Source: Patescibacteria group bacterium
Lineage (GTDB): Bacteria > Patescibacteriota > Gracilibacteria > BD1-5 > UBA2023
Assembly: GCA_049293675.1 (NCBI GenBank)
Contig: JBAQBR010000001.1
Coordinates: 38,273 to 102,272, forward strand
DNA: 64,000 nt
Reading direction: 5' to 3'
The position numbers and the translations under genes were made by a program. The notes below the pieces were generated by a model that saw only the letters and a list, made by a program, of their open reading frames with translations, was not told the origin of the DNA and did no database searches. Of this stretch, positions 8,953 through 48,892 are shown piece after piece. How positions within the stretch are numbered: position 1 is the stretch's first letter; each line of letters opens with the position of its first letter.

Positions 8953-9027
8953 TGGCTCCCCAAATTGGATTCGAACCAATGACCTACCGGTTAACAGCCG
9001 GTTGCTCTACCGCTGAGCTATTGGGGA
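8953..9027 (-). tRNA. tRNA-Asn (anticodon GUU), CCA encoded
   Basis: 75-nt cloverleaf read by hand: acceptor TCCCCAA/TTGGGGA, D arm GCTC-AGCGGTA-GAGC, anticodon arm ACCGG-CTGTTAA-CCGGT, variable AGGTC, T arm ATTGG-TTCGAAT-CCAAT, discriminator G, CCA. Confidence 0.9.
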
Positions 9028-10845: not shown

Positions 10846-13800
10846 CTATAATGGTTCAATACTCAAATTAGATCATGGCTGTATGGTAACGTTCGAACCG
10901 TTGACTTCTGAACGATACTGTATCTTCACAGCTCCTGGACTCGTAACCTGGAAAATACCATCGAACACTGCCACATAGTCAGTATTGGATGCAGCTACAG
11001 CAGTTGAGGTCAGTGTTGTACTTCCGATTGTACCGTTTGAATAGACCTGATGAGCATTACTACTAGTCTGCGCCTGTAGACGACCAGCATAATTGGTAAC
11101 TGTAGCACCGTTGGCTGCCAATGCAATTCAGAGACCAGTTGTTGTTGCAGCAGTACGGAATTTTGCCGTAAATCGGAAGTTATAGTAACCAACTGGAAGT
11201 GATGGGGATGAGAGACCAAGATCACCAAGTACATTTGAAGTCCTGGAAGCTGCACTTGTGAGAACTGCAGTATAATTCCCTGATCCTCATCATCAACCAC
11301 CGCCACTTGGAGTCTCCCATGTTGCAAGTCCATTAGCATCAGAGGTAAGCACTTTTCATGCTCACTCTGTTCAATCAACCATCATAATCTGACCATCTAC
11401 ACGGAGTTTGGCACTATTATTAGTACTACCGATAGTGACATTACCATTCGAGAAGATTCTCATACGCTCACTTGGTGCAGTATTCGTTGTAACATTGCGA
11501 GTGGCAAATATAAGATCACCAAGAGTATTGCCAGCAGTATTAGTAGTTACAAGTCCTATTTCTGCAGGCTGAGAAGATTGTGCAGAAGTATATCAAAAAC
11601 CAATCGTCTGTATTGAGTTTGTTCGTTTTTCTTGTCAACCTATCATAAGATACGGTGTTCCAAAAGCATTTACCATATTGGCGTCTGTTCACTGAACTCA
11701 TCTCTGTATTCGCATCATCTCTTCGGTAGATCAGGCTGAGCCACTATAAGCGAGTACGAGTCTCATGTCTGGGTTTGATGTCCCCATACCAATATTTCAT
11801 CATCCAGTAATCTCTTGGAGCTGAGAGTTATAACCTATATTTACATAGAAGTACTCAATATGATTTGCTGGAACAGTAAGAACTTTTTGCCATGGTGTAG
11901 GAGTAGTTCCATCAGCCAGATAGAGTCCACTACCATAGTTGCTACCACCATTGTACCATCGTCCACTACGAGCAAAGAGTGGGGCATCACCACGCGCACC
12001 AAGAGCAAGTTGATAACCATAACTATCACCTCGAGCCGTCATAGTAAATGAGTTATTCGGACTTGCTGAAAGTCATGTAACAGGATCTGCGATAGCACAA
12101 TCATATGGAGAGCTACCAGCTGCACCATTATAAGAACAGAGTCATGATACACCGTCTTCCTTGAAATATGGAGCATTATATCAGGCACCATTACCATTAC
12201 TTACCACAAATGATTGTTTGGTAGGAAGTTGGAAGTATTTATTGAAATCATATCGAATACGTCTTCCTGCAATATCAGGATCTGGTACTGGAGCTGCACT
12301 ATTGCGACCAAGGGCATCATACACGACTACATCACCATTGGATACTGGAACTATATTACCAGAAGCATCTACTCAGAGTCATACAGCAGCCCCAGTATAT
12401 ACAGGAGAATTGTTATTCACACGAGACATACGTATTCCTGTTGTATTATTGATACCACTATCTACAACAAGTCTAGCAGAGAGAGAACTACCAGTACCAA
12501 TACCAATGTTTCCATTGGTTCAATATATCCAGTTTCCAATATTGAGTTGGTTGGATGCAGTATTGGATACTGCTGCCACACTAGACCCGATGATGATATT
12601 ATTTGCACCTGTTGTAATGCCAGAACCAGCCATATATCCTATAGCTATATTATTATTCGCAAGACTCGCTCTGAGTGCTTGGTATCCAATAGCAACACTA
12701 TTATCATTAGCTGAATTACTATAGAGTGCTTGTCAACCAATGGCTACATTATAATTTCCATCGAGATTCGTCCAGAGTGCCTGAGTACCGATTCCCACAT
12801 TCCAGTTTCCTATACTATTACTATAGAGTGCTTGTGCACCGAATGAGGAATTAAAATATCCAGCAGTTGTATTGTAGAGGGTACTATCACCAACGGCAGT
12901 ATTACTGTATCATGTTGTAAGGGTTCTGAGGCTATTATTACCAAGTCAGATATTGGCTGTACCTGAGGTCTGATAGCGAACAGATGCAGATCAGATACCA
13001 ATATTACCTACCCCACGAAAATGTACTAATGAAAGAGCTCCAGTCCATATCTCAAATCGACTCTGTGGCGTTGTGGAACCAAGAGCAACATATGAACCAG
13101 TTTCAAATAAAAGTGAATTCATAAGCCCATTTCCACCTGTACCGAATTTTGTAATATATCCCTGTGTTCATCCTGTAATACCCGAAGCAGTGATAGAACC
13201 GGAGAATCCAGTAGACCAAGTAGCAAGCCCATTGGCATCAGAAGTAAGGATCTTACCAAGTCATGGGGAACCTCAACCAATAGTCACCTGTCCTGAGAGA
13301 TAGAGATTATTCCAACGGAGTACAGGAGAACCTATATCTCTATACATAAGTGGTGCAGCTACATCTGGCAGTATTGATCCAGATATCGATACATTATTAA
13401 CTGTACGATTTACAATATTATCCGTAATAAGCTTACCCTGAACCGTAAGGTCTCATGTTACTAGAGTAGATCCAGAAACATGGAGGTTGGCAGCGAGTCA
13501 TGAGGATATACCGATACCAACATTATTTCATACATTAAATATAGTTCCGCCTGTCAGGCTATCACCAGCTGAATCAGCTCGAGGAACTTGGTTCGGTAAA
13601 AAACCAAATCAAGTAGCTCAGGCACTCCATGTACAATTAGAACCAAGCTTATTAGCACCAGTAATCCACATACGACACTCTTGTCCTCCATTTTCAGAGA
13701 GAGTAAGGAAAGGATTGGCTGAGTTAGTACTTCAATTAGCCTCAATAGTGACATAACCAACCGTAGCTGCGCCTCCAATAATTCATGGAATATCTCCTAT

Positions 13801-16011
13801 ATAGAGTTTTCACCCTGTTTCATACAACTGTGAGTTATTGATGAGTCATCCACTATCAAATTTTGCGATATAATCTGGGGTACCGCTACTTTTGACTACA
13901 TTGTTGAGGTCTGTCCAATCATATACACAACCAGAGGCAGTCATACCAAGACAGAAACCACTTCCAGCGCGGATAATACTTCCAGAACCCTGCACATCAA
14001 ACATATATGTAGGCGATGTTGTTCATAGACTAATCTTCCCATTCCTTCCGTATATCCAGTTTCCGATATTGAGTTGGTTAGAACCAGTAGATGATGGGAG
14101 ATTCACATCATATCCTATGGCGATATTATTATCTCCTGAAGTAAGTAGGTTTGCTGCATTGATTCATATTACAGTATTATATGAACCTGTAGCGATATTA
14201 GCCAATACTTCATTACCTATAGATACATTAGACCCTCCTGTAGTATTATCTTCAAGAGAATGAACACCCATTGCGACATTGTTACTTCAGGTAGTATTGG
14301 CCCTCAATGCTTGCTGTCCAATTGCAGTATTAGATCCTCCTGTAGTATTATAATAGAGTGCCCAGTTACCTTGTGCAGTATTGCTATTACCAGAGATATT
14401 GGAATAGAGCACAGCAGACCCAACCGCAGTATTGTAGTTTCACGTTATATTTGATCATAGAGACTGAGTACCTATAGCAGTATTGGCCCATGCGGTAGTA
14501 TTTGCTTCGAGAGCACCATTACCGACAGCAACGTTCTCACTTCCTGTTATGTTACTATTAAGAGCCGTACCTCCAATAGCAGTATTGTACTGTCATGAAG
14601 TATTATACTGGAGTGCACGCTCACCAACAGCCGTATTGAGTTCTCAGTCTATATTTTGATTGAGTGCGTTCTGTCCAACAGCAGTATTACGACTCCCTAT
14701 AGTATTGGATGACAGTGTTGCGGAACCAATAGCCGAATTCCAAAATCAAGTTGTATTTGCAGCGAGAGCATATTGACCGATAGCAGTATTGTACTGTCAT
14801 GAAGTATTATTGGTAAATGCATTCCATCATAATACTGTATTCTCTTCAAAATTTCCACTTCCTCTTCAGATAGATAGATTATTGACAAGTATATCTCCGG
14901 CGGTATCGAGGATTCTCGTTGGATTGGTCTTACCAAACCCAACCTGAGTACCGTTGTCATATATTGTTCCTGTTCCAAGTGTTGTATTAGTAAGCCAACG
15001 AGCAATATAATTCGTCTGTCCACCATTGATCCCAGCTATAGTGGGAAGTTGCCAACTTGCGAGACCAGTTGCATCAGATGTGAGAACCATACCAGTTCAT
15101 GGTGAACCACCAGTGATCTTGAGTTGACCTGCTACTTCAAGTTTTGCTCATGGCGTAACAGTTCCAATACCAACATTGGCTCCAGTATGGAATATATTAT
15201 TCGTACGAACCCAATCACTACCATTATAGTGAAGGGTATCTCAGAGGGTAGAACCAGATATAGAAAAAGATGTAGCAGGCACAATATCCGTCCAACTTGC
15301 GAGACCTGTAGCATCAGAGACCAGAAATCTGCCAGAACCAATTCAGCCTCCAGTGATTTTTATCTGTCCTCATACTTCAAGTCTTGCTCATGGGGTAGCG
15401 GTTCCGATACCAACATTACCAGCAGTATCGATACGCATGCGCTCTATATTGTTAGTTATGATAGGGAGAACATGGTTCGATATCGTACCAAGATTTTGAA
15501 CAGCACTGAAAGTGTTTCATCCAACGGCCCAAAAAGATCCCGAAAGAGATGGGAGTGGATCATACCAACTCGCAATACCAGTTGCATCAGACATGAGAAG
15601 TTTTCCTATACCAGGTGATCCTCATTGTATACGAATCTGTCAATTGACATCGAATGTCGCTGTAGGAGTCTGAGTTCCTATACCAATATTGGTTCAATTA
15701 TTGTATATGAGGTTATTACGTATCCAATTAGTACCATCAAAACGGATAGTATCACCAGATGTTTCCCCAACAAAAAATAATCAAGATGCAACTGGAGTCT
15801 GACATATCGGCACTCCTGTAGCAGTAAATCCTCATACTACCTGTCCAAGTGTATTACACTGTGTGGTAGTATACATATTATCAAAATATGTCTGAAACGC
15901 TCCTCCTGGAGTCTCAAATGCTGGTGTATCCAGAGGATATTGTACAGCAAACGCTTGACTCGTGATACCAAGTATACTGGCAATAGAGAGGATAAGGTTA
16001 CGACGAAACAT
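10846..16011 (-). CDS. Giant secreted tail-fibre-like / YadA-head-repeat adhesin (1,721 aa)
   Basis: All 1,722 codons were checked: no TAA/TAG, and about 60 in-frame TGA by manual count. Signal peptide MFRRNLILSIASILGITSQAFA. Three tandem ~80-aa modules N-x-GIGT-x-TP-x-A-x-LEV-x-GQI-x-I-x-GG-x-PG-x-G-x-L-x-SDATG-x-ASW lie at ~15060-15700, with later copies at ~13200-13260 and ~11300-11340. Two blocks of NTA(I/V)G..AL..NT(T/S)G repeats (~14100-14870, ~12540-12960) resemble YadA-head/Hep_Hag repeats. Beta-rich C-terminal ~110 aa. Ends TAG. Confidence 0.85.
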
Positions 16012-16034: not shown

Positions 16035-17393
16035 TTATTGAAGGGTGTTGATAAGTCCTGGTGGTGGATTACCAAGAACAGCGTCATCATACTCAATAAT
16101 CATAGAAGCATCGTCAAGTCGTGGATCACTATACGGAACTGCCTTCTGGGTAGGATCAAGTGGATCATACGTACGGAAGTAGTTGAGATCGTAGAATTCA
16201 GCTGTTGCAAGTGTACATGTCTCTGTTGTCACCGGGCAGACTATTGGTGTCTGACGTGCACCACTGATGGTATTCTTTGAGATAAGGAGTCCTTTTATAT
16301 AGAGCTGTTTCTGTGGTATGTTGAACGCTCCTATTGAGAGATATCTATCGATAGTGGTAGGATTTGGTTTTTCTCATGAAAAGAGAGAACCTTCTGCATA
16401 GAGCAGAGAATATATCTCTTTAACCTTGTCTGATATAATAATATTTCAACCACTTCCATTCGCATCCTTGAGAGCAATAAGGGCACGAACTTCTCCATCA
16501 TCTGTTCAGATAGTATTGACCGTATCGAGGACAATATCGTGTCATACAACCACGATAGAGCGCTTCCCTACTGGCCATGTAGCACCAAAATCAAATATGT
16601 AATCTTCATTCTTCTCTACAAGAAAGTCAAAGGTTGAGGCTGGATTCTCCAGAACAGCATCACTAATATTGCGTGTAAGGAGTGCTATATTTTGTCGGAT
16701 TGTATTCATGATGGTTGCATGTTTTGCGAGGCTGAAGACGTATCCTATATTTTGATTCGGGAGATCAAATATCCTGGTTCCAGCGATATTACCGATAACT
16801 GCAATCTTCCCAACAAAATGAACTGCGACACCATCCATAGAGATACCACTCGAAGTCATAGGGTCAATTCAGAGGATCTGATTATCCGTCTTCGCATAAA
16901 ATGGAATCCATCAGAGTCACTTATTCCATCCCCATCACTCTATCAGTGCAGTTGATGGATTAAAATATACTCATGTATTTGATGAATCAATGAGGGAACC
17001 ACTCAATACAATCCATCCAGCATTCTTGCTCCAGGCATAGCCATGCACAGGACAGATCTGATATGGATTCTGGAGGATATCAGGAGGACAGACTATATGC
17101 GCATTACACAGAGGTACTCCAAGTCCATCTTCACACTGACCAAAAGTAGACCATCATACATTGCCAAGCCAGAAAAATCCAGTAAGGTAACCGTACTGAT
17201 CTCGTGTTGCCGTATACCCAGAGCCTGCTGGCTCTATGTCGAACAAAACAACTCCAGGATGCCCTCCTGTCCAAGTATTCACAGGACTAAAAGAGCCTCG
17301 CATGCGAGAAATATTGTTACTCGAAAAAACCGCTACCATAGAGGCAACGATAATTGTTGTCACAGAAATCAATAGAAGAATTTTACGTTTCAT
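16035..17393 (-). CDS. Secreted or membrane-anchored W/G-motif protein (452 aa, hypothetical)
   Basis: Track fragments 16035..16232, 16542..16859 and 17154..17393 share a frame, and the gaps were checked free of TAA/TAG. N-terminus MKRKILLLISVTTIIVASMVAVFSS. Motifs GYAWSKNAGWIVL and EGWGWNKGLGWIPF. The TAA stop lies 23 nt upstream of the adhesin start, so co-transcription is likely. Confidence 0.75.
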
Positions 17394-31124: not shown

Positions 31125-32510
31125 ATGCGAAGTACATCATATAACCGTAGCGCACGACCAAGTTCCAATCTCCCATGGTGATGGATTGGTATAGTATGAG
31201 GCATCATTGCACTTCTGATTATCGTAAGGATTTTTTCATCTTCTGACACAGAAGCCTCTGAACAATATCTCAGTGTTACTCCAGGTGAGCAGAGCTCAGT
31301 ATACATATCTATGACGACTTCTAGCAAGAGTCGCATCACTTCAGAACAAAAACTCTTTGCGACGGATAAGTCTGTCTCCGTAGAGCTCGGGAATGCTATG
31401 GCAAAAAATGAGTTCATGACAATAGATATAGATAAAGGTTCTGAACTCGCATACAAATCTAGTACTGCAAGTGGCAACACCATCAATCTCTCAAAAGGTC
31501 GTAGCTGGTTAAGTGATATAACAAAACCCCTTCAGATAGAGCTCAAGAACTACAACGTAACAGCGCCTGTAGGGAGCACTATCCTTATAGAACAAAATGG
31601 TCCATATAGCAATGTATATGTACTGCAAGGTGTAGCTACTATAGAGACCTCTGTTGGCAACAAGGATATATCTGCTGGATCTATGATCTCACTCTTGAAG
31701 TCAGATCTCATCAATCCGAACACAGATCTCTCGGAATGGATACGTCCAATTGAGTGATCTATTCTTGAATATCCACTTTTTGTACGCAACAATGGTGCAT
31801 CTCTCCTTGATCAAGCTGGCATCAGTGTGAACACTTGAACTGGTAGTACCTCCACTGATGGACAATCTGGTTCACTTATAGAGTCAACAGCATCGAACTA
31901 CATAGAGATTACTGAGCCAAAACCCGGCATCATGACACGAACAAACACAATCACTGTTATGGGAAATCTTCTCTCAAAAGAAGTAAAGAAAGTAACTATC
32001 AACAATGTTGAAGCCGTAGTGAGTCCTGTAAATGAAACATTTGTTCTCCAAAATATAAGTGTAACAACTGAGATATTCGACATAGTATACAAGGCATACG
32101 ATGCAAATAATTCCCTTCTCCAGACTGGAGTCATCAGTATTTTCTGAGCAAAATGAGCAACTCAAGGGAATGGACCACTCGTTCCAGAAACTTTCCCAGT
32201 ATCAGCAAAAGATTTTAAGATATTGACTCCATCAGGAAATCCATACAGTACAACTGATAGGATGGTGCGCGTAGAGTGAACAATTCCAGCTAATACAGTA
32301 GACTATATTCTCGTGAATGACTATCGTCTACAGCAATTCAGGGCCAAGTCGAGTAGTTGGTATTATTTTGCAAATATGGACTACGGTACTATGAAAGATG
32401 GACTCAATCTCTATACTATCAAGTTCTATCGTGCAGACAATACTCTCCTCTACTCTCAGCCATTTACCATCATAAAAGAATCAAAAAATGCTACAGTTTC
32501 AGGTGAATAA
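31125..32510 (+). CDS. N-terminally anchored extracytoplasmic protein (461 aa, hypothetical)
   Basis: Fragments 31311..31757, 31932..32147 and 32313..32510 are colinear. Start ATG 31125. TM WGWIGIVGGIIALLIIV. Beta-rich extracellular part. Confidence 0.7.
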
Positions 32511-33135
32511 AAATACATCCGGGAAACGATGAGCAACGATGATCGAACTCATGGCCATGCTTGCTATTGTAGGCCTTGGACTTTGATCTATGTTTTCTGT
32601 GATTACTTCTGGTATATACTTTGCCAAAGACACCGAAGATACTATACGAGCTATCAACTTGGCACGAGAAGGCATAGAGTGAGTTACCAATATCCGTAAT
32701 ACCAATTGGCTACGATTCTCTTCAGATAGACAGAATTGCTGGAATTCAAGTAACTATGATGCCTTTTGTATATGAAACGCTGTCTCATGAGACCGTCTGG
32801 GGGCATGACGATATACGCTCTACACAACCAATGGACTCTGGTATCTCTCATGAAGTACTGTTATAGACCCTGATTCTAACTGGACAGGATATGCAAGTGC
32901 ATATAGAGCCATTCAAGATAATACAAGTTTTTTTAATCAGACTGGATCAGCAACTGTTCCATGCAATACAGCAGTACAGAAAAATTGTGTATCACTTTTT
33001 ACTCGAGAGATCGTACTCACTGTTCCTGCGTATACAGGAACAATCTACGTCAAAAGCATTGTCCGCTGGAACACAAAACAACGGCACAAAGTAGAGCTAG
33101 AAACAACTCTCACTAACTGGAAGTCAAAATTCTAA
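32488..33135 (+). CDS. Type IV pilin / pseudopilin-like protein
   Basis: Class III signal: MLQFQVNKNTSGKR-G|ATMIELMAMLAIVGLG, with Glu at +5 after the predicted cleavage Gly. That Gly is TGA at 32530-32532. Alternative GTG start at 32503. Overlaps the upstream gene end. Four Cys in the globular part. Ends TAA 33133-33135. Confidence 0.7.
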
Positions 33136-33192
33136 ATATTTGCCATAAATAAAATATTATGATAAAGTAGGTTCAATTCCTACTTTTTTTAT

Positions 33193-34704
33193 ATGTTTTA
33201 TTCTCATATCCGACAGCACTGGCTCGAATATGCACTCATGGGTGTATGGCTCTGTAATTGTATCATCGCGAGTGTGATAGCTATTCGTGAGGTCTGGGTG
33301 CCATCTATGAGTGCTGGAGCTGATAGTTACGCACATATCCGTAGTGCTCCTTTTGATGGTACAGTTATGCCTATCACATATATTCCTGACTGGACAAAAA
33401 CCACAAATCAAGATAAGTCAAAGCAATTCGAAGAGATATCTATATCAGACTATATTCCCCTCCCCACCTATGATGCGACAACACTCATCAAGGACCTACA
33501 AAATACAAGTAAAATATCTACAATCCTCCACTATACATATACAGTTCCTTATATGGGGAGTTATAATTTTAACTATAAGGAACATGATGGGAGCCATCTT
33601 GGGATAGATATACGCGCGCCTATAGGTACTCCTGTACTCTCGATTGCCAATGGTGTCGTTGTACGAACTGTTGAGGCAGACTCTACGGGGAACAAGTTCG
33701 TAGTAATCAGACATGACGAGGTACCAGTGAATGGTAAAAAAGTCTCACTCTATTCGGGATACCTCCACCTATCACAGATAACTGCAACAGAGTGAACTCG
33801 TATCAAAAAATGAGAAATGCTTGGACGAGTAGGTATGACAGGAATAACTACAACTCCACATCTTCACTTTCAGATAGATACCGCTGAAGCTCCGTTTCAT
33901 CCATATTGGCCGTTCACAAGTGCTGATTCGCGCAATGCAGGACTTGGATTCTTTGAATCAGTAAATGCAGGACTTGGAAAGGAAAATGCATTAAAGTACA
34001 CTATTCATCCAATGAATTTTATCAATGCAAATCTCGGATGAGCAGTATCACAAAATACCTTCGCAAGTGCACCACAACAGCCTACAACAAGCACCATAAT
34101 CAGTGAGAACATCACTGAAGAACAATCCATCAGAGAAAGAGAGATAATGCTCGGATGATATGTAAGCTCAGGAATCAAGACATGTGAGAAAAAACGATTC
34201 TCTGATGTTGGGGAAAAGACAACACTCGGAAAACTCCTCTATCCCCTCATAGACAATAAGTGTCTCTTCCAAAAGGATGGCAAATTCAACACAAAAGAAT
34301 CTATCACAAGACGTGAGGCAATAATCGCTATCATGGATTATTATGATATTGATCCAGCAAATTGAACAAGTCACTTCCTCGATGTATCTATCAGCGATGA
34401 GCTCCAGTGATATGCTGTAGTACTCTATCGTCGTGGGATTGTTGACGGGAACTATCTCTCTCCAGACAAGATACTGACAAAGGCGGAAGCAATACGCCTC
34501 ATCGTAAAAATAGGTAACATACCGAAGAATCCTGGACAAATTCGTATCTATCCAGATGTAGCAACTATGCATCCAGATTTTAGTTCGATTCAAGATTATG
34601 GATTTGCTACAAGGGTTCGTGGATGACGATTTTATCCTGATATGGTACTCAATCGTGGGACATTCGTACAGATTCTCGCGAGTCTCGCAAAAGTCACAAA
34701 ATAA
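33193..34704 (+). CDS. M23 peptidase fused to three SLH domains
   Basis: Frame checked from 33193 to TAA 34702-34704. N-terminal TM. M23 motifs HLGIDIRAPIGTPV and TTPHLHFQI. Three C-terminal repeats have SLH hallmarks: FSDV…ITRREA, FLDV…GIVDG…LTKAEA, YPDV…FYPDMVLNRGTF. Confidence 0.85.
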
Positions 34705-34768
34705 AGTGGATTTTCTCTCCTGATTCAATACACTGAACTAAAAAATATTCCTTGCCCATGACCGAACT

Positions 34769-36163
34769 ATGTCACCCAAAAAAATCATCTTTTTCATCAT
34801 AGTATGAGTTATCACTATAACACTGATTATAGGGATTTTCCTACTCCAAAAAAAGACCACAAAAGAAACGATTATCCCATGAAATATCAGAGTATGGATA
34901 TCTGAGGGCAATACTCAGTCGTATGATTCGCTTATTGAGTGATTCAAGCTCTACGCACCAGAATATGCAGACTCAACTATCACATTCGAGAAAAAAACTA
35001 CAGATCCAATTCGTTATAGAATCCTCCTCCTCTCAACTATGTCGGAAGGAACTGGCCCTGATATATTCATGGTAGGAGCAGGAACTGATGTTGTTCTCGA
35101 ATCCAAGATTGAACCAATACCAGAGAGTGTTATCAACTTTTCTAACTTTGAAAAAGAGTACGACGATGTCTTCCTTCCTCTCATTGTATCGAGTGGATCG
35201 AAGGATACATTTACTCGCTACCTTATGGGTGTTCCTCTCTGATTTGAGACGCTTGGGATTTTTTATAACAAAAATCTCGTTCGAGAAGTTCCAATAACTT
35301 GGAATGCGCTCGATGTACTCTACAGCAATGGCATATCTCCTGAGGTATTCCCAGCCAATCTCTGACTTGGGCCTCGTTATACGCAGAATGCTGCTGATAT
35401 TGTTGGATTATTCTATGGAAGGGCAGGCATGTACGATGCAACGAATCTGAGAGGAGGAGATGGAGAGTGACTTGCCTCATATCTCAGTTACAAGGATATC
35501 CGAATCGCATCAGCATGATCAGATGATGCCTTTGCTCCTATTGTTACGCTCGATGGGAAAAAAGAAGAAATGGACACAGAAAGTCTCACAACCCTAGATC
35601 TCTTCATGCAAGGAGACATCTGAATGATTTTTGGATATCCAAGCCTTGTTACTGAACTCGAAAAAAGTGATAAACGTGTAGGATTCAAAAGTAAGGCAGG
35701 AAATATCCTCACGGAGAGGATTCCTGCAGATTCACCTACAGAAGGAAGAGAGAATGCAGCAAAGTATAACTTCTTCGCACTCTCTAGAGCTACAGAAAAC
35801 CCTGCAACAGCAGTAAAATTCCTGGAGTATCTCCTGACTCCTGATGCACAAAAAAGATTCCTCCAGAATAATCCTTATCTCATTTCAGCTCAACGTTCAT
35901 TTTGGCCAGCACAGGAGAGTTCAGTATTGTCCAATATACTCAATAGAGCAACACTCGGAGCCTTTATCCCAGAGATTGACGAAGAACTCTTTGTATTTTC
36001 TTATGGACTCAAGGCAGAATTCGGGAATTTTCTCTCAGAATATATTGACAGAAATGATAATATAGATATTAATAAGATATCAGAACTGATTTCACACAAC
36101 ATATCATGCAGTATCGATACCTATAGTGGAAAAGAAACTCGTGCTGATTGTGAGAATAAATAA
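34769..36163 (+). CDS. Extracellular solute-binding-protein-like protein (orphan, no adjacent permease)
   Basis: First ATG after an in-frame TAA, and the gaps were checked. N-terminal TM anchor. …IRVWISEGNTQSYDSLIEGFK…GTGPDIFMVGAG… is typical of family-1 SBPs. Ends TAA 36161-36163. Confidence 0.6.
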
Positions 36164-36219
36164 TCAAAAATTGCTTTTTTCCTTTTGATATGATACGATT
36201 GACTGTATATACCTTATCT

Positions 36220-39200
36220 ATGCGTACACTCTACTCACTTCTCATCCTCGTTATAGGATTCATCGGATTCTTTACCATCGCAGATGGTGTGACTTTCGCA
36301 GCAGACAAATGTTGGTTCCCCTTTAGTGACGGAACATGCTGAACTACAGAGCCACCATACTGTGCTGATGGAAAGTGTACACTTCAAGGCGGACTCAATG
36401 CCGCGGGAACAGCTGTGGACTGACAAGTAACAAATCTACCTATTTCAGTGTTCGTCGTCGATATTGTTCAGTACCTCCTCACATTCGTAACCCTGATTGC
36501 TGTCATATATGTTATCTATGCATGATTCCAGGTGATGACGGGAGCATGAGACGAAGAGAAAAGCAAAAAAGCAAAAAATATCATCCTCTACGTTGTAGTT
36601 GGTATCGTCATCATGTGGCTTGCATATGCCCTTGTGAACTGGGTAGTCACCGCAGTGTGAAGAACAGTCTCAACGGATTCTTGAGGAAAATACACATGGT
36701 CACTCGTTCCAGAAGTATCGGCAGCTTATAGTGAAAGTGATGTCGATACTTTTCGAGAGTACCAGAACAAACTTCGGATAGCGATACAGGATCTCGAGAG
36801 TGAACTCAAGATCAATAAGTCAGTAAGTACTGCTAATATTCAGAACATCAAAAACCTAGTACAGGGAGCATACGATCGCCTTCCTGATTTTGGTGATGCA
36901 GGTACACAGAACGACACCATGAAGCGCGGAGTAGACAGAGATCTTGATATAGCCATGAAAAATCCTGGATCTACGAGCCAAGTTGGAAATGCTATCTCTA
37001 GTGTTTCTGCTTTTATCTCTAGTGCCAAGATCGAGACCGTTGAATGAAGTATCAATGCTTCACCGGGAGAGTGAAATGCTCCAGTTACAGTATCGTTCCA
37101 AGCAACAGGAATCAAAGATCCTTCTGGTGCTACTCCAGATAATATGAGTTATATCTGGTGGATGCGAGAAAACGGTGGCGTACGTCGTGAACTCGGAAGA
37201 GGAAAATCCCTTGTCTATACATTTTCCCAAGAGTGAAGCTATACAGTGTTTCTCGATGTTATCTCTGGAAGTCGTAATAGTAAAAAAAAGATTGATGTCC
37301 TCCCACTGAGTACATCAAAGACTATCGATGTAAAACCACGCCTTGGAGAAATAGTACTCCTGGTTAATGGGGTCAACGCAAGCAATCTCCAAACACTGAA
37401 AATCAATCCAACCATCGGAAAAATGTGAGTCATCCTCGATGCTACAGCATCACGAGCCACAGGGGGCAATATCACAGAAACCACATGGGATTTTGCTAAT
37501 AACAACACTATTACGTATCGTTGAGTACCTATTGTTGAACGACAGATTTTTGCAAATTCATGAGACTACAATATTCGTCTCACGCTCAAGACGAACAATG
37601 GACAGACCTTTACCAAGGAGCTCCGCCTCATCGTACGCAATCCAGCTGCCGTAATCCAATGAGAAAAACTTACAGGAAATATCGGTGATGACATGTATTT
37701 TTCTTCGATATCATACTTTACAAATGCAAACAACGTAGAGTACTCTTGGCAGATACAAGATGACAATAACAAAAAAATAGTTAACAACCTCCCTGGAAGT
37801 ACACTCAAGTACCGATTCGATACAATAGGAACATATATAGTCACCCTCACTGCTCGTAGTCCAAATGGTGAAGTAGATACTGATTCACGACAGATAACTA
37901 TCGAGTCTCGATCACCAGTAGTCAACCTCGACAATCCGAAGCCACTCTCAACTGAGAGTCCCAATGTCTTGGAATTTGACGCGTCAAAAAGTTATGATCC
38001 TGACACAATGGGTCGTAAATGACTCACCTATACATGGAGAATAGATGGAGAAAAAATCAATCTCGATAATGTAGCAAACAATGGCGCAAAATGAACTCTT
38101 GTATTTAATTCAGTATGACCTCATACCGTATCACTTACGGTAGCAAATGCATACGGAAAAGTCACTACTGTAGAGCGCCAATTCGAAGTGCAATCGATTC
38201 TTTCAGCCAATCTCCTCATCACTCCACGCGTTGCTCCTCTTGGAACTATTATTAATTTTATAGCCCAATCAGAGAATGCAGACTTCTTTGAGTGGAATAT
38301 GGGAGACGGCTCCCCTATCAAGACAGGAAACAAGAAAATCATCCAACATATATACCAGAAAACTGGAGTATACGAGGTAACTCTTACTGTATCGAGCGCA
38401 AAGTGAAGTGAATCCAATCAGATCAAGAGACGTGTATATGTCACTGATACGAATAGCCCATTTTCTATGATCAGTGTGAACAATGCTTCCAGCACTGCAT
38501 ACTATGATTCTGAGGCATGTGGAGGAAGCGGGGCAACTGTCATCAATAGGTCAGAAGTAACCAATTTCGATGGTTCAAAATCTATCAACATAGATGGTGG
38601 AACCGCTGATCTTACGTATACATGGAGTTATTTTGGAAAAGTAAAAACTACATCTACCCTCTCAGAGAAGCTCTCAGAAATCTGATGCTATCCTGTCAAG
38701 CTTACCGTACGTAGCAACAAAAATGGTGCAACTCATGCATCAACAGAATATATCTCAATCAAGAATATCCCCCCTGAGCTCACGAGTATATCTACAAGTA
38801 TCGACTCTAGTAAGCAAGACAGTCAAAAAGTACTTGTTCGTGTAAATGCAAATGGAGCAATAGATCCTGACGGAGTGATCACTTCATATATCTGGTATTA
38901 TACAACCGAATCCGATCGAGAACCACAGAACATCCAGATTACACAGAATCCAGAGATTACTTTTGTTCTTCCAAACATCACAGAGAAGTATTATTTTGGT
39001 GTGATCCTCGAAGATAATGACGGTGCAAAGGCAAATAGCATGAACGACGGAAGTGAGCAAGTTCCACTGATTCTCGACAATCAGAACGGGAATATCTATA
39101 TGCCACTTATTAGCCTCACGATGCCCAAGAATGCAGTTCTCGTAGGAGAAAATGTGTTTATGTCTGTCGATGCTAAAACAATAGTCTGAACTGTTGTTAC

Positions 39201-41430
39201 GAAGAATGCGGAATATGCCTGGGATTTTGATGGAGATGGTCGCTTCGACGAGCGCTCAACCAATCCATCAGTGAACCATACGTTCAAGAACTCTGGTACA
39301 TACCAGATAAAAGTACGTGTCACTCATAATGGTGTATCAAATACGAAGTATGCAACTATCTATGTAAAAAATCCACTGAAGGCCAATGCTGTCGGTTATA
39401 CACTCGCTGACGGAAGTATCTACTTCATGAATACTAGTGAATGACTCTATGATAGAGCTATATGGACGGTGAATGGAGAACAGACAGAATCACCATACAC
39501 ATTCACGATTCCTCGAGCACAACTCAGTACGCTCTCAGGAGAAGATATTGGAACACTCAGAGTCTCCAATGGTGAGACAGATACATCGAGTTTCACCCTG
39601 TCACGCAAGGATCTCATGCAGATCGCATCATGAACAGGTATTGCATATCAGACATCACCACAAGCCATAGATGATACGATCCATATCAAGTGACAGTCAG
39701 ATAGACTTATTATCTCACTTCTAGGCAACACTACTGCAACATCCTATGCTATCGATGTAGATACTCGTATTGATAGTGATCTTGATGGTATTCCAGACAA
39801 TGATATCGACAACAAGAATCACACTTCCTATACAGATGGTAGCACCTATGTTATCAGTGATTTTGTAGAGTCTCGAATTAGAGAGCGTACCGTGAAGGTA
39901 ACTCTTCTTTCCAATGGGACCATGATAGGAACCAAAGATATTCGAGTTATTCTTGATTTTCTTCCTGAGGCACAGTCAGGGTCTGGAGAAGACTTCTTGC
40001 TTGGTGCATCTGGTTCTATGAGTACATTCGATAGAGAAAAACTCGAAGAGCTTGCAACAATGATACGATCTACAGAGAGTACAGATCGTGTTATCCTCAT
40101 GCAAGAGTACAATACCATGATAGAGAACTGGGGTGACTCATTCTCAAAGGCAAAGTCTCTGATAGATATACAAGAACTCGTCAATACAAGCACTCTCACA
40201 GAAGATAAAAAAATTGCTATCAGTAAAATCATCGACGCACTCCTTGTCGGAGATTCCGCGAGTATCGACGAAGTGACTCTTGCAACCAAGCTCATCCAAG
40301 ATCTCATACCTGCAACGAGTGCCAACCGAGAGACTATTATCGAGAAACTCAACGCTATCTCTTCTCATCCAAGCGATATCGCCAAGAATCGAGACCTCTG
40401 AAAGGAGATACTAGAACTCATCAAAAATGATCCAACCATCGAAGATAAGTACAAGATACACATCAAGAATCAACTCCTCATCATCATCAACGGTGGTCAG
40501 GCAAGTGTCCCAGCTGATGCGGTAGAAGAATCTGGCTCTACTAGCACTATCCTAGGATTTATATCAGGAGTCGTGTGGGTATTCCTCTATATACTCTGAG
40601 GTATACTTCTTGTTCTCCTTATTTGATATGTATTCTACCTTATTGGACGAAAAAATGATGATATTGGATTTCAGGACTTTCTCATTGATTCAGTGTTTCA
40701 TGCAAGAAAATCACCAAATACTACAGAATCAGGAACAACCGACACATCGAATATCATCGTAACACAGGCTCCTGTAGTCGCAGAGAAGTCTCCCATCATA
40801 CAGGTAGACCCTCTTGCGAGCTATACACCTCCTGTGATTGTAACAGCACCCCTCGAGGCTACCCATAACTGACTCGAATCAGCTCCGACTGAGACAGAAT
40901 CATCTACCAATATCCCTGCATGGCTCCAGATACCAAAAACTGAAACAGTATCTGATACTAAAACCGAAACTCCAGGAGTAGAACCAATAGTTACAGAGGA
41001 AGTATCTACACCTACTTGGCTCCAGGTAGACTCTAACGATGGGGATACATCTTCAGTAATAGTCCCCGAGACATTAGAGGACACCCCTGCTGCCCCAGCA
41101 AGTGAATCTACTGTCCCTGATTGGCTCCAAGCAACAGAAGAGGCTATCGCACCTACAGATACTCCTCCAACAGAATCAATAGTCACAGAAGAGGTATCAT
41201 CTCCTGAGACAACCAGAGAAGAGATAACAACTTCCAATGATCTCCCTGATTGGCTCGTAGACTCATTGAAGTCTTCCGAAGAAACCAAGGAAAGTGATAC
41301 ATGAACGACGACACCAACAGAAAAAACTGAAACCCAGCCAGCCAAGAAAAAGGCAACAAAGACAAAAAAGAGTACTACAGCAAAAGATACACCTCCTGCC
41401 TCTGGAGATATCCCTGAATGGCTCAAGTAA
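36220..41430 (+). CDS. Giant surface protein: VirB2/TrbC-like two-TM module + PKD-domain array + C-terminal TM and PxWL-repeat tail (1,736 aa)
   Basis: Every codon from 36220 to TAA 41428-41430 was checked: no TAA/TAG, many TGA. An alternative ATG is at 36190. N-terminus: signal, Cys-rich loop, then IVQYLLTFVTLIAVIYVIYAGFQVMTGAGDEEKSKKAKNIILYVVVGIVIMWLAYALVNWV. At least 8 PKD-like units (for example FEWNMGDGSP…GVYEVTLTV, YAWDFDGDGRFD…GTYQIKVRV) lie at ~37100-39400. TM at ~40555-40650. The acidic tail carries five P-x-W-L motifs. Confidence 0.85.
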
Positions 41431-48447: not shown

Positions 48448-48892
48448 TGGTGGAGATGGCGAGCACTGCCCTCGCGTCGAAAAAGGTACACCGGATGCAT
48501 CTACTCTCTGTAGTTCGATTTTGATATATTGTAGAATAGAAAATGAACAAAAAGCTCTACAATAATACGTTTTCTAGTATTCAGTACCTATGAATTACAT
48601 ATGTTAAGTTCGGACTGAAACTTGTAAGTAAAACAATTCTCTACAAGCTTTGAGAATCGAGTTGTGTAGCAGGCCAGCCGGCACTCATCCTAATATAGGA
48701 GGCTACATTCTTGAGTGATTAGACAGCAAGAATTATGCAAATACACGAGCTGCAGGCATGAAGCTAGCAAGACGAGTAAGTGCAGAAGTTGTAGATTTTG
48801 CATCTATTGTGTGTCATTTGATAACGAGGCTGACCGCCCCGAGAGAGCACATACGACATACGATTCTTTTCCTCGAATCCTATATCATCCCC
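48448..48892 (-). ncRNA. ssrA: tmRNA (SsrA)
   Basis: 5' end GGGGAUGAUAUAGGAUUCGAGG and 3' end …GCGAG-GGCAGUG-CUCGC-CAUCUCC-A-CCA form a 7-bp acceptor stem with the G3:U pair. GGGGCGGUCAGCCUCG precedes AAUAGAU-GCA, which matches the E. coli resume context AAUAGUC-GCA. The tag ORF runs from GCA 48801 down to UAA 48735-48733 and encodes AKSTTSALTRLASFMPAARVFA. Confidence 0.85.

What the first reader, a model, noticed from the sequence alone, without database searches (positions are those of the whole stretch)
10846..16011. 1,721-aa tail-fibre-like adhesin hidden in the standard-code track
The largest standard-code fragment of this gene is 82 aa. With table 25 it is one uninterrupted 5.2-kb ORF, and I checked every codon. 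The layout runs in this order:
1. A signal peptide.
2. Three tandem ~240-nt modules ending in L-x-SDATG-x-ASW (15060-15700).
3. Two long arrays of NTA(I/V)G..AL..NT(T/S)G repeats resembling the YadA head / Hep_Hag repeats.
4. Further SDANGLATW modules.
5. A beta-rich C-terminal tip, where receptor-binding domains of tail fibres sit.
Giant surface proteins are the proposed host-attachment devices of episymbiotic or predatory CPR bacteria. This combination of phage-fibre-like modules with adhesin head repeats is a good candidate for the host-recognition molecule.
Basis: partly seen in the sequence, partly recalled or inferred. Interest (0 to 1): 0.7.

Follow-up and report, generated by a model that had tools for sequence, protein, structure and literature searches.

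The report
Phage-like host-binding fibre of Gracilibacteria
A real 1,721-residue gene, readable only when UGA is read as glycine, encodes a secreted phage-tail-fibre-like surface fibre ending in a lectin-like tip; it is related to the prey-binding fibres of the predator Bdellovibrio and is a testable candidate for how an uncultured Gracilibacteria cell recognises its partner.

Summary
Window 10846-16011 (minus strand) is one 1,721-codon ORF with 60 in-frame TGA and no TAA/TAG. TGA encodes Gly. The window is identical to a public 1.12-Mb Patescibacteria MAG that was annotated with the standard code, so the gene is shattered there.

The protein is not a YadA-type adhesin. No Hep_Hag repeats or β-barrel anchor are detected. 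It is a phage-tail-fibre-type fibre of the kind named MAT (mosaic adhesive trimer) in Bdellovibrio:
- a signal peptide and a lineage-conserved N-terminal domain;
- seven MAT "capping-loop" motifs;
- a β-helix region matching four solved MAT structures (best E = 3.7e-12);
- 17-residue shaft repeats shared with tail fibres in 107 phage records;
- no S74 chaperone;
- a C-terminal ~145-aa TNF/C1q-like jelly-roll, modelled on a 40%-identical homologue at pLDDT 91. It resembles TNF-like lectins, the Bd2734 MAT tip and phage fibre tips.

The gene is chromosomal, not prophage. In six related genomes it sits at the same locus behind a conserved unknown partner gene (g10). Those six orthologues carry three unrelated tips.

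Host or prey recognition is plausible but not shown. I rate it a new member of a known kind, of moderate interest.

The parts
10846..16011 (-). Complete fibre CDS: 1,721 codons plus TAG stop, with 60 in-frame TGA = Gly.
15946..16011 (-). Sec-type signal peptide, aa 1-22 (MFRRNLILSIASILGITSQAFA|V).
   Evidence: Read from the sequence. The same n/h/c layout and A-x-A|[VL] site occur in 27 homologues. No SignalP run.
15787..15945 (-). Lineage-conserved N-terminal domain, aa 23-75 (A[VL]xYP..TPxGE..GG.[FY]..YF.N...C...G.V..GF...G.P.C..P, two conserved Cys). Proposed cell-proximal anchoring end.
   Evidence: It lies at the extreme N-terminus of 27 of the 120 best homologues, including an S74-terminated one (alignment A5). 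No PDB, PHROG or Pfam relative.
15052..15786 (-). Three tandem 'cap' modules, aa 76-320. Each has a MAT capping-loop motif N[IV]GIGT..P.A.L[ED]V followed by GQIKI.GG.PG.GK.L.SDATG.ASW.
   Evidence: for the motifs. DNA repeat family D1, 15052-15704. PDB hit Bd2133 8OND at aa 187-252, E = 1.7e-6. PHROG tail-fibre families 9942, 18345 and 3269. The capping-loop motif list comes from the MAT paper's supplement.
14032..14841 (-). Shaft array 1, aa 391-660: 14 perfectly phased 17-aa repeats (NTAIGxxALxxNTTGxx) plus a terminal NQLNIGNWIYG motif.
   Evidence: D4, D3. phrog_6002, 23837 and 4636. 40-47% identity to tail-fibre genes in 107 phage records. No TAA head in the PDB.
13006..14031 (-). Central region, aa 661-1002: two YI[AT]KF motifs, a Cys-containing segment, and cap module 4 (SDANGLATW at aa 924). 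Fold unknown.
   Evidence: Conserved in 8 homologues. No PHROG hit.
12517..13005 (-). Shaft array 2, aa 1003-1165: degenerate 17-aa repeats.
   Evidence: 51-nt DNA period, family D2.
11812..12516 (-). Most conserved module of the family, aa 1166-1400 (...YDFNKYF.IPTKQSFVVSDG...SASPNNSFTMTA..YGYQ.ALGARGDAPLFARSG...). Function and fold unknown.
   Evidence: 32-78% identical across 13 homologues that differ elsewhere. The AlphaFold model failed at pLDDT 36.7.
11317..11811 (-). MAT-type β-helix region with capping loops and cap module 5, aa 1401-1565 (...GDLIFATRN.TTNTAPSERMRIFSNGNVTIG...KVLTSDANGLATW).
   Evidence: Profile A4 against the PDB: Bd2133 8OND 3.7e-12, Bd1334 8OML 1.7e-8 and 8ON4 4.9e-5, Bd2439 8OL4 2e-5.
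11284..11316 (-). Junction and poly-Gly linker, aa 1566-1576 (ETPSGGGGGGG). It includes three consecutive TGA codons at 11287-11295.
   Evidence: An equivalent poly-G junction is present in orthologue L004.
10849..11283 (-). C-terminal tip, aa 1577-1721: TNF/C1q-like β-jelly-roll, the proposed ligand-binding (lectin-like) end.
   Evidence: AF2 model of the homologous P0047 tip, with two target fragments in the alignment: pLDDT 91.4, pTM 0.86. Foldseek PDB matches: BC2L-C-Nt, PLTL, 4-1BBL, Bd2734 8OKW, BclA. BFVD matches: phage fibre C-termini, TMq 0.70-0.78. Profile search: 1,424 cluster representatives, domain C-terminal in the listed hits. Carrier proteins fall in PHROG tail-fibre families.
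16035..17393 (-). g10: a 452-aa protein with an N-terminal hydrophobic anchor, ending 23 nt upstream of the fibre start on the same strand. Conserved partner of unknown function.
   Evidence: Adjacent to the fibre gene in 6 of 6 genomes. A family of 100 proteins; the only two with organism labels are Gracilibacteria and Altimarinota. No Pfam, PHROG or PDB relative.

Best explanation
The gene encodes a secreted cell-surface fibre of a code-25 Gracilibacteria (Patescibacteria/CPR) bacterium. It is built like a phage tail fibre and like the Bdellovibrio 'mosaic adhesive trimer' (MAT) fibres.

Proposed mechanism:
1. The Sec signal peptide is removed.
2. The small Cys-containing N-terminal domain holds the fibre at the cell surface, possibly through the co-encoded membrane-anchored protein g10.
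3. About 1,500 residues of cap modules, 17-residue shaft repeats and β-helix segments form a long, probably trimeric, shaft.
4. A flexible poly-Gly joint presents a TNF/C1q-like lectin-type tip that binds a surface ligand, probably a glycan, on another cell. That cell would be the host or prey of this episymbiotic or predatory lineage.
5. Specificity is changed by replacing the tip and reshuffling shaft modules at one conserved chromosomal locus.

Shown here: the ORF and its code; homology to MAT structures and to phage fibres; the tip fold (by model of a homologue); the chromosomal synteny; the tip replacement; the pairing with g10.

Inferred: trimerisation, surface display, N-terminal anchoring, g10's role, glycan binding and host recognition.
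For: - Real, native gene.
- Cellular chromosome, not phage. The neighbours are MetRS, ABC-F, Lgt, a sugar transferase, ValRS and an M23 peptidase. The window also holds a tmRNA and a tRNA.
- The same synteny holds in six genomes.
- MAT homology. The only PDB sequence hit of the whole protein is Bd2133. The profile of aa 1162-1560 hits four MAT structures. Seven copies of the published capping-loop motif are present.
- No S74 domain, so it is of the NS74 type.
- Phage-fibre shaft.
- Tip. A confident TNF-like jelly-roll model matches TNF-like lectins and the Bd2734 MAT tip. The MAT authors themselves compare Bd2734 with BC2L-C 2WQ4. It also matches phage fibre tips and belongs to a sequence family placed at the C-terminus in the listed hits.
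- Mosaicism. The six positional orthologues carry three unrelated tips: A in three, B in two, C in one.
- Fast divergence. The fibre aligns only block-wise, at 40-72% identity, while flanking housekeeping genes are 63-91% identical.
- Biological plausibility. The only cultivated relatives, both Absconditabacteria, are epibiotic predators with fibrous surfaces and large surface proteins (PMC8080830; PMC11452946). MAT fibres are surface-displayed, and one binds prey glycans (PMC10769870).
Against: - There are no expression, localisation or binding data.
- Trimer formation was not modelled; only monomer AF2 was available.
- The tip model is of a 40%-identical homologue (P0047), not of the target itself.
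- TM-scores to solved TNF-like structures are modest (0.45-0.61), and no C1q or TNF Pfam signature is present.
- Homology of the N-terminal domain to the Bdellovibrio MAT N-domain could not be tested. The domain looks shorter than the ~130 aa described for MATs.
- Only one or two such genes per genome were seen, against 21 in Bdellovibrio.
- The locus is a conserved core locus among cell-envelope genes. That would also fit a structural envelope role.
- The ~235-aa most-conserved module (aa 1166-1400) is unexplained.
Confidence: 0.6

Rival explanations
1. It is a structural cell-envelope or general-adhesion fibre (S-layer-associated coat, or a fibre for cell-cell piling, biofilm or particle attachment). 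It would have no role in specific host or prey recognition.
For: - It is a single-copy, syntenic core locus embedded among envelope genes: Lgt, a sugar transferase, an M23 peptidase and a Mur ligase.
- Only one or two copies per genome were seen, unlike the 21-member MAT repertoire.
- Related family members occur in non-predatory bacteria such as Limnobacter.
Against: - Tip replacement among close relatives, and divergence far faster than the flanking genes, are typical of ligand-recognition proteins under diversifying pressure.
- The tip fold is that of trimeric lectins and phage receptor-binding tips.
Confidence: 0.22
2. It is a phage or prophage tail-fibre gene (a virion component), or a very recent phage-derived insertion, and not a cellular gene.
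For: - Strong PHROG tail-fibre and tail-spike matches.
- The repeat array occurs in 107 phage records.
- The tip family is carried largely by phage tail-fibre-like proteins.
Against: - None of the eight neighbouring genes scanned has a phage-related Pfam family; six match housekeeping or cell-envelope families.
- The same locus and synteny occur in six genomes.
- Genome-typical TGA usage, and G+C close to the rest of the window.
- A Sec signal peptide, which virion fibres generally lack (general knowledge).
- The N-terminal domain and g10 have no phage relatives.
Confidence: 0.03
3. It is a trimeric autotransporter adhesin of the YadA/Hia type, with the NTAIG arrays forming a YadA-like head.
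For: - Superficial likeness of NTAIG..AL..NTTG to the Hep_Hag consensus.
- JGI pipelines label some homologues 'trimeric autotransporter adhesin'.
Against: - No Hep_Hag, HIM or YadA_anchor hit even at E <= 1.
- The array profile finds no TAA in the PDB.
- The repeat period is 17 residues, not the 14 of the YadA head (general knowledge).
- The C-terminus is a soluble TNF-like β-sandwich, not a membrane β-barrel.
- The polarity is opposite to that of TAAs.
Confidence: 0.02
4. It is a surface fibre serving another interaction, for example a decoy or receptor in phage-host conflict, or a docking device for DNA uptake or type IV pili, rather than host-cell recognition.
For: - Phage-like tips could bind the same ligands that phages use.
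- Pilus-like and T4SS-pilin-like genes are present in the window (not followed up).
Against: No specific evidence supports it. There is no defence-system context near the gene.
Confidence: 0.08

Closest known systems
Bdellovibrio bacteriovorus MAT (mosaic adhesive trimer) fibres, NS74 subgroup: Bd2133, Bd1334, Bd2439, Bd2734 (Caulton et al. 2024, PMC10769870)
   Same: - Signal peptide, then a conserved N-terminal domain, a long fibre, a β-helix with the NVGIGT..P.AKL capping loops, and an exchangeable C-terminal tip.
- Direct sequence homology to four solved MAT structures.
- A TNF-like tip as in Bd2734 and Bd2439.
- Tip swapping between relatives.
- The organism belongs to a lineage with predatory or episymbiotic relatives.
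   Different: - Roughly 1.5-2 times longer than the characterised MATs.
- Contains long 17-aa phage-type shaft arrays and an unexplained conserved 235-aa module.
- The N-terminal domain is short and Cys-containing; its homology to the MAT N-domain is untested.
- One conserved locus with a dedicated partner gene (g10), rather than 21 dispersed paralogues.
- CPR cell envelope and genetic code 25.
- CPR are not among the MAT-bearing taxa listed by the authors.
Phage tail fibres with NTAxG..AL..NTTG 17-aa repeats, e.g. Pelagibacter phage HTVC111P/112P tail fibre, Roseobacter phage CRP-1/7 tail structural protein, cyanophage P-SSM2 'proximal tail fiber / tail spike'; PHROG 6002, 23837, 4636
   Same: - The shaft array is 40-47% identical over 250-280 aa, with PHROG E-values of 1e-61 to 9e-48.
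- The tip family and fold are shared with phage fibre C-termini.
   Different: - The gene is chromosomal, syntenic and cellular, and carries a Sec signal peptide.
- Its N-terminal domain and partner gene have no phage relatives.
- There is no phage attachment domain and no phage context.
Bacterial 'tail fiber domain-containing proteins' ending in Peptidase_S74 (PF13884), e.g. the 2,263-2,613-aa proteins of Limnobacter spp.
   Same: They share the 17-aa arrays and cap modules, with E-values from 1e-116 to 1e-154. They correspond to the S74 branch of the MAT superfamily.
   Different: The target has no S74 intramolecular chaperone/protease. It ends in a TNF-like tip and has a Gracilibacteria-type N-terminal domain.
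Trimeric TNF-like lectins BC2L-C N-terminal domain (Burkholderia cenocepacia, 2WQ4) and PLTL (Photorhabdus, 9IB9), and the C1q-like BclA tip
   Same: These are the best PDB fold matches of the tip model: E = 7e-6 to 4e-4, TMq up to 0.61. They are trimeric carbohydrate-binding or surface-fibre tips.
   Different: Sequence identity is only 8-15%, and there is no Pfam signature. The binding-site residues cannot be transferred. Trimer formation and sugar binding are untested.
YadA-type trimeric autotransporter adhesins (Hep_Hag head repeats)
   Same: Only a superficial motif likeness (N-x-A-I-G) and the general idea of a repetitive trimeric adhesin.
   Different: All tested defining features are absent. 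The period is 17 residues, not 14, and the polarity is opposite.
Giant surface proteins of Absconditabacteria (Vampirococcus lugosii; PMC8080830)
   Same: They come from a related lineage. They are proposed to mediate recognition of and attachment to the host, and to give the fibrous cell surface.
   Different: No sequence comparison was made here. The paper's text contains no occurrence of 'fiber' or 'tail'.

Membership tests
MAT (mosaic adhesive trimer) fibre superfamily | N-terminal Sec signal peptide | tested here: met
   MFRRNLILSIASILGITSQAFA|V has n/h/c regions and an A-x-A site, conserved across 27 homologues. Judged by inspection only; no SignalP.
MAT (mosaic adhesive trimer) fibre superfamily | Conserved β-rich domain of ~130 aa immediately after the signal peptide | tested here: inconclusive
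   A conserved N-terminal domain exists: ~55 aa with two Cys, followed by a first cap module. It lies at the N-terminus of 27 of the 120 best homologues. No Bdellovibrio N-terminal sequences or structures were available, so homology could not be tested. It has no PDB relative, as the authors also report for theirs.
MAT (mosaic adhesive trimer) fibre superfamily | β-helix segments bounded by capping loops with the consensus NVGIGT..P.AKL | tested here: met
   Seven motif copies, at aa 107, 199, 279, 356, 1167, 1406 and 1524. Compared with the published motif list.
MAT (mosaic adhesive trimer) fibre superfamily | Sequence homology to characterised MAT fibres | tested here: met
   Bd2133 8OND at 1.7e-6 with the single sequence. 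With the profile: Bd2133 3.7e-12, Bd1334 1.7e-8, Bd2439 2e-5.
MAT (mosaic adhesive trimer) fibre superfamily | C-terminus is either an S74 chaperone/protease or an exchangeable adhesive tip (mosaicism) | tested here: met
   No PF13884. The tip is a TNF-like fold, as in Bd2734. Mutually unrelated tips (types A-D plus P0106) and S74 ends occur on the same N-terminal domain, and tips A, B and C occur among positional orthologues.
MAT (mosaic adhesive trimer) fibre superfamily | Trimeric fibre | not testable with these tools
   Only monomer AlphaFold2 was available. Trimer formation is inferred from homology to trimeric MAT, phage-fibre and TNF-like structures.
MAT (mosaic adhesive trimer) fibre superfamily | Surface display and contact with prey | not testable with these tools
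   Needs microscopy, proteomics or binding assays.
MAT (mosaic adhesive trimer) fibre superfamily | Large paralogous repertoire (21 in strain HD100) | tested here: inconclusive
   No paralogue in the 64-kb window. One conserved locus per genome, plus a second S74 gene in L009, and probably two members on one 266-kb contig, inferred from matching contig lengths. The full source genome could not be scanned.
Trimeric autotransporter adhesin (YadA-like) | C-terminal YadA-type β-barrel membrane anchor | tested here: not met
   No PF03895 at E <= 1. The C-terminus models as a TNF-like β-sandwich.
Trimeric autotransporter adhesin (YadA-like) | Hep_Hag / HIM head and neck repeats | tested here: not met
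   No Pfam hit at E <= 1. The array profile finds no TAA chain in the PDB at E <= 1. The period is 17 aa.
Phage tail fibre (virion component) | Sequence homology to phage tail-fibre shafts and tips | tested here: met
Phage tail fibre (virion component) | Encoded in a phage or prophage structural module | tested here: not met
   Housekeeping neighbours and conserved chromosomal synteny in six genomes.
C1q/TNF superfamily | β-jelly-roll sandwich fold | tested here: met
   Model of a homologous tip at pLDDT 91.4. Foldseek probability 1.00 to BC2L-C-Nt, PLTL, 4-1BBL, Eiger and BclA, and to C1q-domain proteins in BFVD. The model is a proxy at 40% identity to the target tip.
C1q/TNF superfamily | Pfam C1q (PF00386) or TNF (PF00229) sequence signature | tested here: not met
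   No Pfam family at E <= 1 for the target or for the 13 tip sequences.
DGR (diversity-generating retroelement) variable protein | Template/variable repeat pair covering the C-terminal domain | tested here: not met
   All four direct-repeat families in the window lie in the shaft part of the gene; none covers the tip. Reverse transcriptase was not specifically searched for.

The most novel reading that the evidence does not exclude
In this Gracilibacteria clade, one conserved two-gene cassette is the principal host-range determinant. The cassette is the membrane-anchored g10 followed by the fibre. g10 would be a lineage-specific anchor or assembly factor for the fibre's N-terminal domain. Wholesale replacement of the C-terminal tip (types A, B, C...) at this single locus would re-target the cell to different hosts, as a phage swaps receptor-binding proteins. 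Tip type could then be used to predict the still-unknown hosts of uncultured Gracilibacteria.
Probability: 0.3. Interest if true: 0.7.

Novelty: new member of a known kind. Interest (0 to 1): 0.5.

Why it matters
No Gracilibacteria has been cultured, and their hosts are unknown (PMC11452946). This work gives a concrete candidate recognition molecule:
- it is homologous to experimentally characterised prey-binding fibres of another predator;
- it has a confidently modelled lectin-type tip;
- it sits at a fixed locus, so tips can be compared across genomes.

That makes host recognition experimentally approachable. Tips can be expressed recombinantly and tested on glycan arrays or candidate host cells. 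Tip type can be correlated with co-occurring taxa.

It would also extend the MAT/phage-fibre adhesin principle to a second lineage with predatory or episymbiotic relatives, one with a different cell envelope and genetic code.

Finally, it shows how standard-code annotation of code-25 MAGs hides such genes. In the public record this gene appears only as small fragments; the largest standard-code ORF in its reading frame is 82 aa.

Tried and rejected
- Restricted tools. The search of protein representatives and structure prediction refuse code-25 translations. I worked around this with TGA-free target fragments and sub-sequences of database homologues. As a result the tip model is of P0047, not of the target.
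- Homology search with the tip alone. It found only the 82-aa NCBI fragment, a limit of the word index. The exhaustive profile search was used instead.
- Middle domain (aa ~1175-1432). The AlphaFold model failed at pLDDT 36.7. It was not fold-searched, and the module remains unexplained.
- Genome-collection scan with the 23-sequence N-domain alignment. A narrower alignment found only two loci, both Gracilibacteria MAGs. So paralogue counts and a full taxonomic spread were not obtained.
- The listing of cluster members added almost no names.
- Promoter and terminator scan. Counts were not above the shuffled controls and were uninformative about co-transcription of g10 and the fibre.
- Automated tip clustering. 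Using the last 130 aa or a regex merged classes, because short tips include the conserved cap. Direct pairwise comparison replaced it.
- g10. Pfam at E <= 10, PHROGs and the PDB gave only noise: FimA4_C at 0.16, and light-harvesting proteins at 5e-4 that I judge compositional.
- DGR hypothesis for tip variation. No template/variable repeat was found.
- Rejected readings: YadA/TAA and prophage.

Full report
OBSERVATION

The minus strand of window 10846-16011 translates under table 25 into 1,721 residues with only the terminal TAG. Under table 11 the same frame has 61 stops. The frame holds 60 TGA codons and no TAA or TAG. TAA+TAG make up 2.08% of triplets in the window. An open frame of 1,721 codons therefore has P of about 2e-16, and the longest such run in 20 shuffles was 299 codons.

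The whole window is TGA-recoded. ORFs of at least 100 aa sum to 138 kb when TGA is read through, against 36 kb under the standard code. A non-overlapping set of 49 genes covers 96% of the window.

TGA means glycine, on four grounds:
- With TGA masked as X, homologues place Gly opposite it in 54.5% of aligned cells. The GGN control gives 68.5% Gly and the TGG control 29% Trp.
- TGA falls at the Gly positions of the internal repeats.
- Three consecutive TGA codons (11287-11295) lie inside the linker SGGG-GGG-GSG.
- TGA supplies 23.3% of Gly codons here and 24.4% in the other 48 genes, so codon usage is native.

SOURCE

That 82-aa piece is an annotated NCBI protein: P0121, 'MAG: hypothetical protein WAW59_00400 [Patescibacteria group bacterium]'. 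The window is the reverse complement of GCA_049286235.1 contig JBAQDH010000001.1 (1,118,814 bp), with 0 mismatches over 20,249 nt. In that record the region is called as 41-168-aa fragments, because the standard code was used.

Labelled relatives of the fibre and of its neighbour are 'Candidatus Gracilibacteria' or 'Candidatus Altimarinota'.

CONTEXT

The neighbours are MetRS, a β-lactamase-family protein, ABC-F, [fibre], g10, Lgt, a sugar transferase, ValRS and an M23 peptidase. A tRNA-Asn and a tmRNA lie elsewhere in the window. None of the eight neighbouring genes scanned has a phage-related Pfam family.

The same gene order is found in five other genomes: L002/L003, L004, L007, L008 and L009. 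The gene is therefore a positional orthologue at a conserved chromosomal locus, not a prophage gene.

ANATOMY

| Residues | Feature |
|---|---|
| 1-22 | Signal-peptide-like leader ending AFA\|V |
| 23-75 | Conserved domain with two invariant Cys |
| 76-320 | Three cap modules ending SDATG.ASW (DNA repeat D1, 15052-15704, spacing 240 and 273 nt) |
| 391-660 | 14 perfectly phased 17-aa repeats, NTAIGxxALxxNTTGxx |
| 661-1002 | Region of unknown fold with a fourth cap |
| 1003-1165 | Second, degenerate 17-aa array |
| 1166-1400 | Highly conserved module of unknown fold |
| 1401-1565 | β-helix-type region ending in a fifth cap |
| 1566-1576 | Poly-Gly joint |
| 1577-1721 | All-β tip |

All four direct-repeat DNA families in the 64-kb window lie inside this gene.

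WHAT IT IS RELATED TO

Pfam and NCBIfam give nothing credible: no Hep_Hag, YadA_anchor, Peptidase_S74, C1q or TNF, even at E <= 1. PHROGs give strong hits on the repeat array: phrog_6002 at 1e-61, phrog_23837 at 2e-54 and the tail-spike family phrog_4636 at 9e-48. The cap modules hit tail-fibre families.

The array is 40-47% identical over 250-280 aa to annotated tail-fibre or tail-structural genes in 107 phage records. These include Pelagibacter phages HTVC111P and 112P, Roseobacter phages CRP-1 and CRP-7, and cyanophage P-SSM2.

A profile of the array finds no YadA-, Hia- or BpaA-type head among PDB sequences. The only hit is a marginal left-handed-β-helix protein at E = 0.08. The YadA/Hep_Hag resemblance is therefore not homology.

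The only solved structure with sequence similarity to the whole protein is 8OND, Bdellovibrio Bd2133 (E = 1.7e-6). A profile of aa 1162-1560 hits four Bdellovibrio fibre structures: Bd2133 at 3.7e-12, Bd1334 at 1.7e-8 and 4.9e-5, and Bd2439 at 2e-5.

These are the 'mosaic adhesive trimer' (MAT) fibres of Caulton et al. 2024 (PMC10769870). The authors describe them as surface-displayed trimeric fibres with:
- a signal peptide;
- a conserved N-terminal domain;
- β-helices with capping loops;
- either an S74 chaperone or a swapped adhesive tip, which can be a novel β-sandwich, TNF-like, C-type lectin or SPRY domain.

One of them binds prey glycans. Their published capping-loop motif (for example NVGIGATSPSAKLQ) recurs seven times in the target (for example NVGIGTATPGARLE).

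THE TIP

Twelve proteins share the target's tip. The structure tools reject code-25 translations. I therefore modelled the tip of P0047, a correctly translated Gracilibacteria protein that is 40% identical to the target here. The 13-row alignment included two TGA-free target fragments.

The model is confident: pLDDT 91.4, pTM 0.86, about 12 strands.

Foldseek against the PDB returns these matches:
- the trimeric TNF-like lectins BC2L-C-Nt (E = 7e-6, TMq up to 0.61) and PLTL;
- 4-1BBL and Eiger;
- the Bdellovibrio MAT tip Bd2734 (8OKW, 5.6e-5);
- BclA;
- a phi812 spike knob and a cyanophage short-tail-fibre domain.

The MAT authors themselves compare Bd2734 with BC2L-C 2WQ4.

Against BFVD there are 355 hits at E <= 1e-3. 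The best are C-terminal parts of phage collagen-repeat or tail-fibre proteins (TMq 0.70-0.78, rmsd 2.2-3.4 Å), along with C1q-domain proteins.

An exhaustive profile search finds 1,424 cluster representatives, 290 of them at E <= 1e-10. In the listed hits the domain sits at the C-terminus of proteins of 163-1,983 aa. A sample of these carriers has no Pfam family covering the tip and scatters over PHROG tail-fibre and minor-tail families.

It is not positive at the Pfam-signature level.

MOSAICISM AND EVOLUTION

The N-terminal domain sits at the extreme N-terminus of 27 of the 120 best homologues, including S74-terminated ones. Downstream of the conserved junction ...LTSDANGLATWETPSGGGG, relatives carry unrelated tips. 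Types A, B, C and D show no significant pairwise similarity (E > 0.04).

| Genome | Tip type |
|---|---|
| Window | A |
| L002 | A |
| L009 | A |
| L007 | B |
| L008 | B |
| L004 | C |

Module numbers also differ between orthologues.

Flanking housekeeping proteins are 63-91% identical between these genomes. The fibre aligns only in blocks: 72% over 699 aa with L002 and 40% with L004. The tip is 63% identical to L002's tip. No template/variable repeat suggests a DGR.

PARTNER GENE

g10 (16035-17393, minus strand; 452 aa) has an N-terminal hydrophobic anchor and ends 23 nt before the fibre start. It lies immediately upstream of the fibre in all six genomes. It defines a family of 100 proteins; the only two with organism labels are Gracilibacteria and Altimarinota. 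Ten further contig-length coincidences with fibre homologues are seen. It has no Pfam, PHROG or PDB relative.

INTERPRETATION

The protein is a secreted, phage-tail-fibre-type fibre of the MAT kind, NS74 subtype, in a Gracilibacteria chromosome.

Most likely mechanism: the N-terminal end is held at the cell surface, perhaps by g10. A long, probably trimeric shaft extends from it, and a lectin-like TNF-fold tip binds a ligand on another cell.

Three things make host or prey recognition the best-supported function: tip replacement at a fixed locus, fast divergence, and the biology of the only cultivated relatives, which are epibiotic predators with fibrous surfaces (PMC8080830; PMC11452946). That function is still inferred, not shown.

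Rivals:
- a structural or general-adhesion envelope fibre, which cannot be excluded;
- a prophage fibre, rejected;
- a YadA-type TAA, rejected.

NOVELTY

MAT fibres and bacterial 'tail fiber domain-containing proteins' are known. Large surface proteins in this CPR branch have been proposed as attachment devices. The following appear to be new:
- the link of Gracilibacteria to MAT-type fibres. CPR are absent from the MAT paper's list of other taxa. In a full-text search pairing the MAT terms with CPR terms, none of the 15 listed papers contained a MAT term;
- the single conserved g10-fibre locus;
- tip replacement among positional orthologues.

I rate it a new member of a known kind, of moderate interest.

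LIMITS

- Only monomer models were available.
- The tip model is of a homologue, not the target.
- The 235-aa conserved module is unexplained.
- N-domain homology to the Bdellovibrio MAT N-domain is untested.
- The paralogue count in the source genome is unknown.
- There are no expression data.

Noticed in passing
window 1-64000 (= GCA_049286235.1 JBAQDH010000001.1, reverse complement): The public record of this 1.12-Mb Patescibacteria MAG is annotated with the standard genetic code. In the ~20-kb stretch retrieved around this gene, all calls are 41-168-aa fragments. The genome uses code 25 and needs re-annotation.
   Followed up: partly
window 16035-17393 (-): g10 is a 452-aa protein with an N-terminal hydrophobic anchor and repeated G-W motifs. 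It has no Pfam, PHROG or PDB relative. It lies immediately upstream of the fibre gene in 6 of 6 genomes. Its family has 100 members, and the only two with organism labels are Gracilibacteria and Altimarinota.
   Followed up: partly
window 36190-41430 (+): A second giant gene (1,746 aa). It has a TrbC/VirB2-like type IV secretion pilin segment near the N-terminus, followed by many PKD domains. By my reading of the sequence it also has a C-terminal transmembrane segment and an acidic tail with repeated P(D/E)WL motifs. It is another candidate cell-surface or interaction protein.
   Followed up: no
window 11287-11295 (-): Three consecutive TGA codons encode part of a seven-glycine linker just before the tip domain. 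Under the standard code this would be a triple stop.
   Followed up: yes
L009 1-2638 (GCA_043770315.1 JAYVIJ010000006.1): In one related genome a second fibre gene, S74-terminated (PF13884) and more than 1,143 aa long, lies just beyond ValRS, a few kb from the g10-fibre locus. So some relatives have both S74 and non-S74 fibres.
   Followed up: no
window 11812-12516 (-), aa 1166-1400 of the fibre: This is the most conserved module of the whole family: 32-78% identity across proteins that differ elsewhere, with invariant D/S/G, Q-S-F, GYQ and R.D...R.G positions. It has no detectable relative, and its AlphaFold model failed at pLDDT 36.7. It could be a second binding or enzymatic site.
   Followed up: partly
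window 48448-48892 (-) and 8953-9027 (-): A tmRNA (Rfam RF00023, 75.9 bits) and a tRNA-Asn(GTT), both consistent with a cellular chromosome.
   Followed up: no
window 32488-33135 (+): An ORF with a type-IV-pilin-like N-terminus (…KRGATMIELMAMLAIVG…). It sits among several membrane-protein ORFs at 31125-36163, which may form a pilus gene cluster. This was seen only in the ORF list.
   Followed up: no
L002 18301-19821 and L007 19118-19344: In two related genomes a serine recombinase (Resolvase/Recombinase Pfam) lies just downstream of the ABC-F gene that flanks the fibre locus. In L002 it is followed by an HTH_17 gene, an AAA-family ATPase gene and an N6_N4 methyltransferase gene. This may be a mobile-element insertion site next to the locus.
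   Followed up: no
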